Assembly (NCBI GenBank): GCA_951406725.2 | Contig: OX597838.1 | Span: forward strand, 4,402,001-4,466,000 | Source of the DNA: Octopus vulgaris | Lineage: Eukaryota | Length of the DNA stretch: 64,000 bases | Direction: 5' to 3' | Shown here: positions 3,001-18,000 of the stretch, one piece after another | Layout: every line of letters begins with the position of its first letter | How positions within the stretch are numbered: the first letter of the stretch is position 1 | Program-made: the position numbers

Positions 3001-6000
3001 TGTATATATATATATATCTATGTATGTATGTATGTATATAATATGTGTACGTATGTATGTATATATATATATATATATATGCACCTTCATGTTTTGGATT
3101 CTATTTTTCCTGTTTGCATTGCCATATCTATATTATATATATATATATACACACACACACACACACACATACATATATAAAAGTTCAGGATTCAAGTGAA
3201 TCAGGTATATGTTTTTTTTTAAGATGTTGAATTCACGTGTATTCACCTGAAGAAAACATTTTTTTCGCATGATGTAATAACTCGCTTCATCCAAAAAAAA
3301 AAAACGTGTTTGAAACAGCTGTAGTGAATGAACCAATTTCGATCTGTTGTGTATATATATATATATATATATACATACAGAGTTTGTTTTCTTATATCAT
3401 AAGAAACGATGGCAGTTAATTAAAAAGGATTTAAACTTTCTTATGAAATGATATAAGTACATACAAAGAGGTATATATATATATATATATATCCAGGGCC
3501 ACTCGGGCAGCTGCTCGGGGCGCTACGTGTTAGTGGGCGCCAAAGAGGGCGTGAGGAAGACAAGGAAATTTCCACGACCTTCAGCTTGTACACATCGAAG
3601 TTCAGCTTGCCGGGGACACCAGCAACCCTAGGGCTGACTCTGTGTGTGTGTGCGTAATGTATATGTAATATATATATATATATAATGTATGTACGTGTAT
3701 GTATGTATAAATGTGTATATATTTATGAGTGTACATATATATGTATATATATATATGTATTTGTATATGTGCGTATATATTAGTTAAGGCATAGGTTTAA
3801 AATGAATTTAAGGTTTTAGCATGCATGTCTCTTTTACTCTTTTACTTGTTTCAGTCATTTGACTGCGGCCATGCTGGAGCACCGCCTTTAATCGAGCAAC
3901 TCGACCCCGGGACTTATTCCTTGTAAGCCCAGTACTTATTCTATCGGTCTCTTTTGCCGAACCGCTAAGTGACGGGGACATAAACACACCAGCATCGGTT
4001 GTCAAGCAATGCTAGGGGGACAAACACAGACACACAAACATATACACACACATACATATATATATATATATATATATATATATACATATATACGACGGGC
4101 TTCTTTCAGTTTCCGTCTACCAAATCCACTCACAAGGCCTTGGTCGGCCCGAGGCTATAGTAGAAGACACTTGCCCAAGATGCCACGCAGTGGGACTGAA
4201 CCCGGAACCATGTGGTTGGTAAACAAGCTACTTACCACACAGCCACTCCTGCGCCTATATACACACATATACACATGCATGCTCCTCTGAAACTTATATT
4301 TATATATCTTGATACACCCCCCCACACACACACACATCTGTATATCTTCACACGCGTGCGTACACATACAAACACACACACACACGTACGCCATCTTTTC
4401 ATCCATTTCCATCTCAGACATGGACCTCATTCTTTGTGTTGTCGATGTCTTGGTACAAAGTCTGATCGTCGCAACAATCGTCTGCTACGTTTCTGTATAT
4501 CATGCCCTCGTTTTGCCACTGTTGCAGCGACGACGACGACGATAAAGACGGTGATGGCGACGACGAAAGTGACGAGGCAGCGTTCGTCTTTGCAACGTCG
4601 TTGCTGTGTCCGGCTTCTTCGCCATCGAACATGGCGTTTTGGTAGACGTGCGACTGGACGACGGCAGCGCGCCGTTGTTTTCTTGGTTGTCGCGTGTCAG
4701 GGCACTTAATGCAGTCACTGTGCGATGGGCTGTTGTTGTTGTTGTTGCAATTGCTGTTGTTGTTGTTGCTGTTGTTATTGTTGCTGTTGCTATATGGAAC
4801 GCTGTAAATGATGTCACTTTCGTCCTCCTGCTCGTCATCCTCTTCTTTACTGTTCAGATAGATATAGATTCCACTGTCGCAGGTTTTGCTGCGACTCCCT
4901 TCGATGCTGTCATCATCCCCATTATTGTTTTTGCGGTCATCACCAGCACCAGCGCCACCACCATCAGCAGTATCGTCACCACGATCGTCGGACGATTTCT
5001 GGTTGTTAAATTTAGAACGAGATTTTGGTACGTTGTAAGTATCTTCATTTTTCGTCTTTGCAAGGTCTGTTAGTTCCATAAATTCGCCTTTAGCCTTATC
5101 ACTTCTTCCACTGCCATCCTTACCACGACCACCTCTACCGTTGCCGTTAACATCCGTCTTGTTATCTTGGTTGATGTCTTCGTACGTTGCATAGTGCAAT
5201 GGCTGCGAAGTGTTGTTGGTGCTGCTCTTAATTTCTGAGTATATATCATCGTTGTCGTTGTTAGCAGAGGTTCCTTCAGAACTTTCCGGCCTCTCGTTGA
5301 CGTAAATATCTGAAGAACTACCACAATTCTGTTCAGGCTCCTCTCTTATCCTGCAGGTTTTCGCATTTCCTTGCCCAAATTTTGGATCAGGGAGCACATA
5401 AAGTGTGTCTCCTCGGGTCCTGCCGCCGCAGTTTCCTTCCTCGAGGTCATCAAATCTGTACCTAAAAAAAAAGAAGAAAAACAATTAGAGCAAAATTAAA
5501 AAAAAACAACATAGGACTTATTTATTTAACAATGGTTAAATACTGTTCTGTTGATTTTGTTGTTATTGTTGTTGTTTGGGTTGATGCAGTGAAGTAGCGA
5601 AAGGATGGTGTTGCTTGGTTTGGCATAGTGTAGTATGAAATATTACACAGGTTGGGGTTAGTGGTGTATAAGAGATGTTAAAACTAACATATATACACGC
5701 ATATTCTTAAATAGATACATATATGTATATGTGTGTGCGTATATACTCACACAAACACGTATATATATATATATATATATATATATATATATATATATAT
5801 ATATATATACATACATATGTATATATGTGTATGTGTGTGTGTATATGGAGAAACAAGCAGATGAAAAATGGAGTTTAAATGGATGTGATTGCTGATTTAT
5901 TTGAACGTTGTAGAAAGATGGCATTTTTTAAAAAACACATTACTAATAGATTTGAAGTTTAAAGCTCAAAAAAGTTAAGGAAAAAAAACGTAAGATGAAC

Positions 6001-15000: not shown

Positions 15001-18000
15001 ATATATATATATATATATATATATATATATATATATATATACACACTTGAAATTTATAGAAAGACGAAAGACGAAGACAGGTGTATGAACAACAAGCTGG
15101 TGTAATAGTTTGATGTTCGTGTGTGCGTCTTTGTGCTTTGTTTGTCCGCTCGACAACCGGTGCTGGTTCGTTTATGACCTTGTAATTTAGCGGTTCGGCA
15201 AAAGAGACCGGTAGTAAAACAAGAGCAACAGCAACAAGCAAGGAAAAGAAAGAGAAGAGAAAAGAAGAGAAGGCAAAACGAAAGCTCTGAAATAATTACT
15301 TGAAATGCAGAGGTTGTCCTTCTTCGTGAAACCTTTACAACAGTGGGCCTTCATTCTGTAAATGATCTTCGTTCTCCTTTCTAGCCGAGAAAGTCGTTGT
15401 AAACTGAAAAGAAGATTAGATTTTTAAGAGCTTTTTAAATTTCAATGACGACGTAGCAGAGTCGTTAAGAGGTACGTTTCGCGACCAGTTGGATGTCAGT
15501 TTCAGTTGTACCGTGCAGCACTCTTTGTCCGACCAAAGACTTGTCAGTGAATTTAGGTAACAGCATACATACATACATACATACATACATACATACATAC
15601 ATACATACATACATACATACATACATACATAAATACATACATATATATATATATATATATATATATATATATGAATAAATAAATAAATGGAGTTGAACGA
15701 AGATGTTAACAAAATTCCTTTACTCTCGACATATGTTTCGAAGACAACATGGTTTTATTCCAAAGGAATAAACGGTGCAAGATGCAATCTTCTCATCAGA
15801 AAAGAAAGAGAGCCTCTTTCTGACGTGTTTCTGGCGTGAATTTGCTACCCTGGTATCGGTTCATCGAATTTTCCATGTTGACGGTAAACATAGGATAATT
15901 CATTCACCTATCGATATATATATATATATATATATATATATATATATACTTTATTTAAAAGCAGCAGAAATATAACAATGGGGGTCTTTACCCTTCATGC
16001 TATATCCAGGAATCGAAACGGTGATCTCATGATTGTGAGTACAACAGCCTAACCACTAGGCCACGCGTCTGTGTGTGTACGTATGTATGTGTGCGTGTAT
16101 GCATGTACGTACGTACGTACGTACGTATGTATGTATGTATGTATGTATGCATGTACGTACATACGTGTGTGTGCTTGTGTTTATCCCCTCACTACATGAC
16201 AACCGCTGTTAGTTTGTTTACGTTCCATAACTTAACAGTTGTATATAGGAGACCGATAAAATAAGTACCAGGCTTTAAAAAGAACCCTAAATACCGGGGG
16301 ACAATTTGTTCGACTAAAACTCTTGGCGGTGGTACCCCAGCATGGCCGCAGCAGTCCAACGACTGAAAGAAGTAAAGGTTAAAAGTTACAGAAACCAGAC
16401 ACGTTCCTTACCTGTATACGGTTTTACAAAACACAATCAATTTGCATTTTCGTGTGTGGACAATTCTGGTGAAATATACACGCTCTAAATATGTAACAGT
16501 GTGCCTAGAGAAAAGAGAAAGAGAAAATAGATAAATTAATAAATGATTAAATAAATAAATGTAAAGAATATAAATAAAGAAGAGGCCAAGTGCTAAGAAA
16601 TGGTAAAATCAAAATAAGCAACAGGATATCAAGTAGTAATGCAGTACGACCGTTTCAAGCGACTCCATTTAATTGAACAATGCACTCGTTACATCAATTT
16701 TAATTCAGTGCCATCTTCAGCAGCACAAATAAATAAATGGAATTTTAACAAGTAGAACACATTAATATTATTTTTCTTAAATATTTTAACAGAGCAAAAA
16801 GATGCAAGAAATTCATGCTGTCGCTATTGTAGCTAAGAATAGACTACAGCTTCTAAGAATATATACATATATATATATATATATATATATATATATATAT
16901 ATATATATATATATATATATATATATATATATATATATATATATGCGCGCGCGAGTGTATGTAGTTTAGGACAATCAAGAAGTTGTCCTATTATGACAGC
17001 TTACTGATTGTCCTAAACTATACATTTATAAATTCCTCTATTTACCGATATCGAGGTCTATTCTTTTGTTGTCATATTGTTATATGTATGTATGTATGTA
17101 TGTATGTATGTATGTATGTATGTATGTATGTATGTATGTATGTATGTATGTATATACATACATATATATATATATATCTACGACGGGCTTCTTTTAGTTT
17201 AACCAAATCCATTCACAAGGCTTTGGTCGGCCCAAGGCTATAGTAGAGAACTCTTGTCCAAAGTGCCACGCAGTGGGACTGAACCCGGAACCATGCACCT
17301 ATGTTTAAAAAATCCTCTTATATTTTTATAATGAAATATTATTAGGAATTGTATAATTAAGAAATTCTTAAAATATTTTGTGTATTGTAAAAGCACGACT
17401 AATTAAATGCAGGGCTTTATATGGATCCCAAAGAGCTATAAGAACCCCAATTGAGAACCATTGCACTAAACTAAAAATTCTTCAAGGCAGTGCCCCAGCT
17501 TGGCCATAGTCTAATGACTGAAACAAGTAAAAGATAAAAGACACCACCTCCAAACAGTCTGGTACTAAACGCCGACACTACAGAGGAGTTAAGATTAGGG
17601 TCAGGTTTAGGGTTGGGGTTAGGGTTAGGGTCATAGAAGTTTTTAAGGGGATGGTACTTACGATATTGTTGAAACACAAACGTTCCGAAGCGGACCAAGC
17701 TCGTTGTCCGTGTTGTTTACAACGCTTGATGTTGACGAAGCTAAAATACACAGCCATGGGAAGACACCGATCCAGAGTTCAATTTTCATGGTGACAGCTT
17801 CCTGATTTTTTTTTAGCTTCTGCCAATAATTTAGCACTGAAAATAATAATAATAATAATAATAATAATAATAATAATAATAATAATAATAATAATAATAA
17901 TAATAATAATAATAATAATAATGATAGTTTCTACATGCAAATAGGCCAGACATTATATTGAAAGACTTCAAGCAAAAATCATGCCTCCTCGTTGATATGG

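What the first reader, a model, noticed from the sequence alone, without database searches (positions are those of the whole stretch)
4414..17789. EMI-only receptor: a Draper/CED-1/Nimrod-like protein with no EGF/NIM repeats
Seen: nine phase-compatible GT-AG exons, several too small or out of frame to appear in the ORF track, join into 629 aa: signal peptide, six-Cys module (NVC..RKC..VFC..YR..HCCKGF..NLC), S/T/P stalk, TM helix and a cytoplasmic tail of about 420 aa. Known: this Cys pattern with CCxG[YWF] is the EMI module found at the N-terminus of CED-1/Draper/MEGF10 and NimA phagocytic receptors, where it is followed by EGF/NIM repeats. Inference: here the EMI domain sits directly on a mucin-like stalk. 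That is an unusual minimal architecture and may be a lineage-specific engulfment, immune or adhesion receptor.
Basis: partly seen in the sequence, partly recalled or inferred. Interest (0 to 1): 0.8.

Follow-up and report, generated by a model that had tools for sequence, protein, structure and literature searches.

The report
Octopus membrane protein with EMI-like module
This is a real octopus gene for a single-pass membrane protein with one small cysteine-rich head that probably is a very divergent EMI domain, no EGF repeats, and a long tyrosine-rich tail; it belongs to a small uncharacterised family seen so far mainly in cephalopods.

Summary
The gene is real. All junctions are GT-AG and in phase. 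The two extra stalk exons (13402..13352, 10807..10691) are not in that model and remain predictions. The product has a signal-peptide-like start, a six-Cys module, a short stalk, a TM helix and a 421-aa tail.

No EGF or NIM coding sequence was found in the introns or in full-length relatives.

The EMI call is plausible but unproven:
- Pfam EMI does not hit the octopus protein.
- It is the commonest sub-threshold hit in relatives: 15 of 20 members, best E 0.046, at most 14.8 bits against a cutoff of 25.
- UniRef names a cuttlefish relative "EMI domain-containing protein".
- Structure tests were inconclusive.

The tail has no NPxY and no canonical ITAM, so it is not a Draper/CED-1/MEGF10 member. 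It most likely works as a phosphotyrosine docking receptor.

An exhaustive search found only 5 relatives. This is a new architecture of a known domain, of moderate interest.

The parts
43776..43955 (-). First exon of the public model P0005 (its residues 1-60). Probably a 5' untranslated exon misread as coding.
   Evidence: tblastn at 100% identity. The peptide is low-complexity (RERERE) and has no counterpart in relatives, which start with a signal peptide just before the module.
17662..17789 (-). E1 coding part: ATG, signal-peptide-like MKIELWIGVFPWLCILASS, an NNT sequon and the first Cys (NVC). In the public model the exon extends 5' to about 17836.
   Evidence: Donor is GTAAGT; the exon ends in phase 2.
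16412..16504 (-). E2: middle of the Cys module (VTY, RKC, VFC).
   Evidence: 100% identical to P0005 residues 120-149.
15300..15403 (-). E3: end of the Cys module (YR..HCCKGF..NLC). The exon ends two residues after the last Cys, in phase 1.
13352..13402 (-). Predicted 51-nt in-phase stalk cassette (T/S/P-rich). It is not in the public model.
   Evidence: one of 3 strict candidates against 0.26 expected. Unique in the window. No transcript evidence is available.
10691..10807 (-). Predicted 117-nt in-phase stalk cassette with an NQT sequon. It is not in the public model.
   Evidence: No Pfam hit. No similarity to relatives. Unique in the window.
9901..10063 (-). E5: membrane-proximal stalk (NSS sequon), TM helix IAVVVSAAVAACLLAAIIVAC and the RRRKK stop-transfer.
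   Evidence: Kyte-Doolittle 19-residue peak of 2.97.
8480..8553 (-). E6: conserved juxtamembrane cytoplasmic segment (SEIP...).
7374..7485 (-). E7: cytoplasmic segment with ENYYVSM (YxxM) and MLSTRGS.
4414..5461 (-). E8: 348 codons of acidic, N/S-rich, Tyr-rich tail plus the TGA stop.
   Evidence: 100% identical to P0005; 91% identical to P0006.

Best explanation
The locus is a genuine octopus gene for a single-pass type I membrane protein. It has a cleavable signal peptide and one N-terminal six-cysteine module of about 70 residues. That module is most likely a highly divergent EMI domain. It sits on a short glycosylated stalk, whose length may vary by cassette-exon splicing. A TM helix follows, then a 421-residue acidic tail that is predicted to be disordered and carries 16 tyrosines. 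I infer that the module binds a ligand or self-associates at the cell surface. I further infer that the tail, once tyrosine-phosphorylated, acts as a docking scaffold for SH2-type adaptors. Its motifs are Grb2-type YxN, p85-type YxxM, Crk-type YxxP and Src/Syk-type YxxI. In other words it would work like an immunoreceptor or transmembrane adaptor rather than like a multi-EGF engulfment receptor. Shown: the gene structure, the topology features, the absence of EGF, and family conservation of the six Cys and of two tail motifs. Inferred: the EMI identity, phosphorylation, the binding partners and the cellular role.
For: Gene: 7 exons map at 100% identity to the public Octopus vulgaris protein P0005, and all junctions are GT-AG and in phase. 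Family: exhaustive HMMER over 1.84 billion representatives found 5 proteins at E<=0.001. A profile search found 22. Full-length relatives share the layout of signal peptide, six-Cys module, stalk, TM helix and Tyr-rich tail. Conserved columns: the six Cys, V-T-Y, T-x-Y and CC-x-G are invariant in 5 of 5 sequences and at least 90% conserved in 20. In the tail, Y354-x-N356 and Y375-S376 are at least 90% conserved in 20 sequences. EMI: PF07546 is the family matched by most members (15 of 20, best E 0.046). Its alignments span profile positions 3-68 of 69 over the module. UniRef names P0008 'EMI domain-containing protein'. The N-terminal single-copy position and three possible disulfides fit published definitions (PMC3342094 and PMC11949838, passages). 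The AF2 model of relative P0017 gives the module pLDDT 68-78, with two long antiparallel strands running from C1 to the CC pair. That agrees with the description of EMI in PMC11949838 (passage). No EGF. Tail: pLDDT below 50 throughout; motif counts are. Stalk splicing: relatives P0015 and P0016 lack a 22-residue stalk segment that P0007 has, at the same place where E3 ends here, two residues after the last Cys.
Against: The octopus protein itself gets no Pfam family at E<=10, either exon by exon or as the public protein. All EMI hits in relatives are below the 25-bit gathering score. The 20 members are redundant and represent about four lineages; EMI hits occur in three of them. The protein-atlas feature search gave only leads below 0.9 (a STAB2 fragment at 0.81) and no named cluster. 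The AF2 model of the octopus protein is poor, with module pLDDT about 40. Foldseek of the relative's model against the PDB gave 0 matches at E<=0.001, and the top hits were generic long beta-hairpins. Sequence and profile searches of the PDB found no EMI chain. The strict WRCCPG[YF]xGxxC consensus is not met. The tail motifs are short regular expressions that can arise by chance. Phosphorylation and binding partners are untested. Expression data were not available.
Confidence: 0.55

Rival explanations
1. One reading: it is a Draper/CED-1/MEGF10/NimA-type engulfment receptor that has lost its EGF/NIM repeats and still signals engulfment.
For: It has an N-terminal EMI-like module with CC-x-G-[FY], a single TM helix and a Tyr-rich tail. 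A YSEI-x15-YEDI pair is conserved in cephalopod relatives as YSEI...YSSV and YSEI...YSFI. This loosely resembles an ITAM.
Against: There are no EGF/NIM repeats. There is no NPxY and no ITAM with 6-12 spacing. Both motifs characterise this receptor family (PMC8092387, passages). The exhaustive search found no similarity to any such receptor.
Confidence: 0.12
2. The six-Cys module is a lineage-specific fold that only mimics the EMI cysteine pattern. The protein is still a type I receptor, but it is not an EMI-domain protein.
For: No Pfam hit for the octopus protein. All hits in relatives are below threshold. No EMI match by PDB sequence, profile or fold search. No named atlas cluster. The W-R, P and xGxxC parts of the EMI consensus are missing (compared with PMC3342094).
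Against: Across three lineages, EMI is the one recurrent Pfam family at the module, with near full-length profile coverage. UniRef's automatic naming reached the same call for P0008. The position, size, Cys spacing and predicted strand topology all fit.
Confidence: 0.28
3. It is a passive surface glycoprotein or adhesion molecule whose long low-complexity tail has no signalling role.
For: The tail is N/S/D-rich and predicted to be disordered. The stalk is mucin-like.
Against: Specific tail motifs (YxN, YS[ED][IV], and in cephalopods ENxYxSM and SRYR) are conserved between lineages that share only 21-33% identity overall.
Confidence: 0.1
4. It is an annotation artefact or pseudogene.
For: The public record is only a 'Hypothetical predicted protein', and it carries an implausible 76-residue N-terminal extension.
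Against: The frame is open over 1719-1887 nt across 7-9 exons with canonical splice sites. P0006 is 91% identical over 367 residues. Distant relatives conserve the layout.
Confidence: 0.03

Closest known systems
Public records of the same family: Octopus vulgaris 'Hypothetical predicted protein' (P0005) and Acanthosepion pharaonis 'EMI domain-containing protein' (P0008)
   Same: P0005 is this gene: seven exons match at 100% identity. P0008 has the same module, TM helix and juxtamembrane motifs.
   Different: Both records carry automatic names only. No paper on them was found.
Draper / CED-1 / MEGF10 / PEAR1(Jedi) engulfment receptors
   Same: Type I topology, an N-terminal EMI(-like) module with CC-x-G-aromatic, and a Tyr-containing tail thought to be read by SH2 proteins.
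   Different: Those receptors have many EGF/NIM repeats plus NPxY and ITAM/YxxL motifs (PMC8092387, passages). Here there are no EGF repeats, no NPxY and no canonical ITAM, and no detectable sequence relationship.
NimA (Drosophila Nimrod family)
   Same: An EMI domain at the N-terminus of a transmembrane protein (PMC13076899, search listing only).
   Different: From recall, NimA carries NIM/EGF repeats after the EMI domain; this protein has none.
EMILIN / Multimerin / EMID1 (EDEN superfamily)
   Same: A single N-terminal cysteine-rich module of about 70-80 residues ending in CC-x-G-[YF]...C. P0005 also has the C1-x4-[S/T] feature (S five residues after the first Cys, compared with PMC11949838).
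   Different: Those are secreted matrix proteins with coiled-coil, collagen or gC1q regions and seven Cys with WRCCPG[YF]xGxxC (PMC3342094). Here there are six Cys, HCCKGF-x6-C, and a membrane anchor.
Vertebrate transmembrane adaptor proteins (LAT/PAG type; recalled, not tested)
   Same: A small ectodomain, a single TM helix with a Cys at the cytoplasmic edge, and a long disordered tail with several YxN and YxxP/I/V docking motifs.
   Different: No sequence relationship. Those adaptors have almost no ectodomain and no Cys-rich module.

Membership tests
EMI domain (Pfam PF07546; EDEN superfamily) | Single copy at the N-terminus, directly after the signal peptide | tested here: met
   The module spans the end of E1 through E3, and its first Cys is 38 residues after the ATG. 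Relatives have the same position. The feature is taken from PMC3342094 and PMC11949838 (passages).
EMI domain (Pfam PF07546; EDEN superfamily) | About 70-80 residues with regularly spaced Cys: seven, or six as in MMRN1; three disulfides | tested here: inconclusive
   There are six invariant Cys, spaced C-x24-C-x5-C-x25-CC-x9-C in P0005. That is enough for three disulfides, but the pairing is unknown and the count is six, not seven.
EMI domain (Pfam PF07546; EDEN superfamily) | C-terminal consensus WRCCPG[YF]xGxxC | tested here: not met
   P0005 has AHCCKGFTKKDNLC. The short relatives have YCCPGFQLEDDVC. Only CC-x-G-[FY]...C is kept.
EMI domain (Pfam PF07546; EDEN superfamily) | Pfam profile score at or above the gathering cutoff (25 bits) | tested here: not met
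   P0005 and its exons give 0 families at E<=10. Relatives score 8.0-14.8 bits, E 0.046-6.7, in 15 of 20 members.
EMI domain (Pfam PF07546; EDEN superfamily) | EMI fold (two long antiparallel strands plus a C-terminal hairpin) | tested here: inconclusive
   The P0005 model is poor. The model of relative P0017 has strands 19-41 and 47-69 at pLDDT 68-78. Foldseek against the PDB gave no match at E<=0.001.
EMI domain (Pfam PF07546; EDEN superfamily) | O-fucose motif C1-x4-[S/T] (PMC11949838) | tested here: inconclusive
   It is present in P0005 (S) and P0009 (T). It is absent in the P0007 group (P) and the P0010 group (G).
Draper / CED-1 / MEGF10 / NimA receptors | EMI followed by EGF or NIM repeats | tested here: not met
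   No EGF or other domain was found in P0005. None was found in 70 minus-strand ORFs of at least 30 aa between 9850 and 17700; 17 of 87 ORFs were dropped as low-complexity. Relatives have none.
Draper / CED-1 / MEGF10 / NimA receptors | Cytoplasmic NPxY motif | tested here: not met
   Zero NPxY in P0005 and in the 5 relatives checked.
Draper / CED-1 / MEGF10 / NimA receptors | Cytoplasmic ITAM (Yxx[IL]-x6-12-Yxx[IL]) | tested here: not met
   None in the tail. The only pair is YSEI-x15-YEDI.
Transmembrane adaptor proteins (LAT/PAG type) | Sequence homology to a known adaptor | tested here: not met
   The exhaustive HMMER search returned only the 5 family members. The resemblance is functional and from recall only.

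The most novel reading that the evidence does not exclude
Cephalopods, and possibly other lophotrochozoans, evolved their own family of minimal 'EMI-only' transmembrane phosphotyrosine scaffolds. A single EMI-derived head sits on an alternatively spliced stalk and is wired to a long multi-SH2-docking tail. This would be an independent invention of an immunoreceptor- or adaptor-like signalling device from an extracellular-matrix domain.
Probability: 0.3. Interest if true: 0.6.

Novelty: new variant of a known kind. Interest (0 to 1): 0.42.

Why it matters
EMI domains are known at the N-terminus of secreted matrix proteins and of multi-EGF engulfment receptors. A membrane protein made of an EMI-like head alone plus a tyrosine-rich tail would be a new architecture. 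It would give a simple system for asking what an EMI domain binds on its own. It would also add a candidate cell-surface signalling receptor to cephalopod biology, where immune and glial receptors are poorly known. On the practical side, the public model of this gene probably has a wrong start and may lack stalk exons.

Tried and rejected
- Exon-by-exon Pfam search and Pfam on the public protein found nothing.
- PDB sequence and profile searches gave only TM-helix or chance matches.
- A word-based homologue search with the ectodomain found only the protein itself.
- The atlas feature searches gave only weak leads (a STAB2 fragment at 0.81) and no named cluster.
- AF2 of the octopus protein with a 20-row alignment was unusable for the module.
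- AF2 of relative P0017 was moderate. Foldseek of that model against the PDB gave no significant match. Its top rows were long beta-hairpins of pore-forming proteins, which I read as generic hairpin matches.
- Comparing the 117-nt stalk exon with relatives showed no similarity.
- A search for paralogues in the window found none.
- Literature searches for EMI with mollusc or cephalopod terms listed no paper on this family.
- The reverse-transcriptase idea for the ORF at 11109..11621 got no Pfam support.
Synteny, orthologous introns and transcript support therefore stayed unchecked.
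Full report
**What is in the sequence**

The window is AT-rich eukaryotic DNA full of microsatellites and short interspersed repeats. On the minus strand between 17789 and 4414 I read the exons directly and checked acceptors, donors and phases by script.

| Exon | Coordinates | Length | Notes |
|---|---|---|---|
| E1 | 17789..17662 | 128 nt | ATG in ACCATGA context; donor GTAAGT |
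| E2 | 16504..16412 | 93 nt | |
| E3 | 15403..15300 | 104 nt | |
| E5 | 10063..9901 | 163 nt | |
| E6 | 8553..8480 | 74 nt | |
| E7 | 7485..7374 | 112 nt | |
| E8 | 5461..4414 | 1048 nt | includes the TGA stop |

All are AG...GT and phase-compatible.

I only added lengths. Searches on the window's own sequence were done exon by exon.

**Corroboration by a public model**

The last exon alone (348 residues) is 100% identical to a 649-residue NCBI/UniRef record, "Hypothetical predicted protein [Octopus vulgaris]" (P0005). tblastn of that record onto the window places it on E1, E2, E3, E5, E6, E7 and E8, plus an extra first exon at 43955..43776.

- It begins 76 residues upstream. That is a low-complexity peptide from the far exon plus read-through of the leader in E1.
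- It skips both stalk exons.

Relatives begin with a signal peptide immediately before the module.

**The two stalk exons are not verified**

- The 117-nt exon has no Pfam hit and no similarity to relatives.
- Open in-phase AG..GT cassettes are frequent by chance: 247 in the 5236-nt intron against about 124 in shuffles.
- With a pyrimidine-tract and GTRAG filter only 3 remain, against 0.26 +/- 0.59 in 50 shuffles.
- Both exons are unique in the window.
- Transcript-like relatives come in two forms that differ by a 22-residue stalk segment at exactly this junction, two residues after the last Cys (P0007 against P0015/P0016).

**The protein**

In order along the chain:
- A signal-peptide-like start, MKIE followed by 13 hydrophobic residues (by inspection; no predictor was available).
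- An NNT sequon.
- A six-Cys module spaced C-x24-C-x5-C-x25-CC-x9-C.
- A short stalk with an NSS sequon.
- A TM helix (Kyte-Doolittle 19-residue peak 2.97) followed by RRRKK.
- A 421-residue tail with 16 Tyr, 71 D+E, 53 N and 52 S.

AF2 gives the whole tail pLDDT below 50.

**No EGF**

Pfam found no domain in the public protein. It found none above its curated cut-off, and no EGF, NIM or EMI hit at all, in 70 minus-strand ORFs of at least 30 aa between 9850 and 17700 (17 of 87 ORFs were dropped beforehand as low-complexity). Nine of those 70 ORFs had one or two weak hits at E 0.003-0.06, all below cut-off and all to unrelated families. Full-length relatives go from the module straight to the stalk and TM helix. 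The "EMI-only" layout, meaning no EGF/NIM repeats, is therefore well supported.

**The family**

- Exhaustive HMMER over 1.84 billion representatives found 5 proteins at E<=0.001.
  - P0006 is a 91%-identical partial.
  - Three are cephalopod-type relatives: P0007, P0008 and P0009.
  - P0010 (298 aa) is a shorter, more distant relative whose match is to the Cys module (E 6.6e-4).
- A profile search gave 22 members. Only two carry names, from Octopus vulgaris and Acanthosepion pharaonis; the rest are unnamed records.
- Invariant in 5 of 5 sequences, and at least 90% conserved in 20: the six Cys, V-T-Y after the first Cys, T-x-Y after the third, and CC-x-G.
- In the tail, Y354-x-N356 and Y375-S376 are at least 90% conserved in 20 sequences.
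- Cephalopod members also share SEIP, ENxYxSM, MLxTRGSRYR and CDSGIY.

**Is the module an EMI domain?**

For:
- The position, size and Cys spacing fit.
- CC-x-G-[FY]...C is present.
- PF07546 is the family matched by the most members: 15 of 20, best E 0.046, covering profile positions 3-68 of 69.
- UniRef names P0008 "EMI domain-containing protein".
- The AF2 model of relative P0017 has two long antiparallel strands from the first Cys to the CC pair, at pLDDT 68-78. PMC11949838 (passage) describes EMI in the same terms.
- The octopus protein also has Ser five residues after the first Cys, which fits the C1-x4-[S/T] O-fucose motif of that paper. Only 2 of 4 lineages keep it.

Against:
- The octopus protein has no Pfam hit at all.
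- Every hit in relatives is below the 25-bit cutoff.
- The members are redundant, about four lineages in all.
- The strict WRCCPG[YF]xGxxC consensus of PMC3342094 (passage) is not met.
- There is no named atlas cluster.
- No EMI chain was found by PDB sequence or profile search.
- No fold match was found at E<=0.001.

I put EMI homology at roughly 0.6.

**Is it a Draper/CED-1/Nimrod relative?**

No. The passages read in PMC8092387 describe Draper, MEGF10 and CED-1 as sharing EMI plus EGF/NIM repeats and a tail with NPxY and an ITAM or YxxL. Here there are no EGF repeats, no NPxY and no ITAM with 6-12 spacing, and there is no detectable similarity. A YSEI-x15-YEDI pair, conserved in cephalopod relatives, is the only ITAM-like feature.

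**How it most likely works (inference)**

The small head binds a ligand or self-associates. The stalk length is tuned by splicing and glycosylation. The disordered tail is a multi-site phosphotyrosine scaffold, with YxN x5, YxxP x3, YxxM x1 and Yxx[ILV] x5. Assigning these motifs to Grb2, Crk, p85 and Src/Syk-type SH2 domains is from general knowledge and was not tested here. Functionally it resembles an immunoreceptor or transmembrane adaptor more than a multi-EGF engulfment receptor.

**Novelty and limits**

The protein is already in public databases, under automatic names only. My searches listed no paper on it; supplements were closed, and only the held library was searched.

These items stayed unchecked:
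- Transcript support, orthologous gene structures and the taxonomic range beyond the named cephalopods.
- A PROSITE or HH-type profile test.

My verdict is a real gene, a new architecture for an EMI-like module, and moderate interest.

Noticed in passing
window 43776..43955 (-) and 17790..17836 (-): The public Octopus vulgaris model starts at an ATG in a far upstream exon and reads through the leader of E1, which adds 76 residues (partly RERERE from a GA repeat) ahead of the signal peptide. Relatives lack this extension, so the annotated start is probably wrong.
   Followed up: partly
window 9700..9900 and nine other places (for example 1814..1958, 3832..4026, 24908..25052, 41377..41537): A short interspersed repeat of about 150-200 nt occurs at least 10 times in the window, on both strands, at 75-88% identity. 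One copy lies just downstream of the E5 donor.
   Followed up: partly
window 11109..11621 (-), inside the intron between E3 and E5: A 171-aa open frame that from recall resembles the C-terminal part of LINE-type reverse transcriptases. Pfam gave no hit at E<=0.1, so this is unconfirmed. One of the three strict cassette-exon candidates (11570..11469) lies inside it and is probably spurious.
   Followed up: partly
window 62129..64000, and many shorter tracts (for example 49413..50223, 22118..23496, 12203..12448, 17831..17930): Very long tetranucleotide (CATA/TATG-type), dinucleotide and trinucleotide (ATT/AAT) microsatellites create long artefactual ORFs on both strands. The last 1.9 kb of the window is one such array.
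   Followed up: no
relatives P0007 (402 aa) compared with P0015/P0016 (380/381 aa): Otherwise near-identical relatives differ by a 22-residue stalk segment directly after the Cys module, and the junction residue changes (D against G), as expected for a phase-1 cassette exon.
   Followed up: partly
window 44000..48400: There is a strong strand-asymmetric composition switch: GC skew is -0.57 at 44-46 kb and +0.66 at 46-48 kb. It coincides with low-complexity S/L-, H- and G-rich frames just upstream of the public model's first exon.
   Followed up: no
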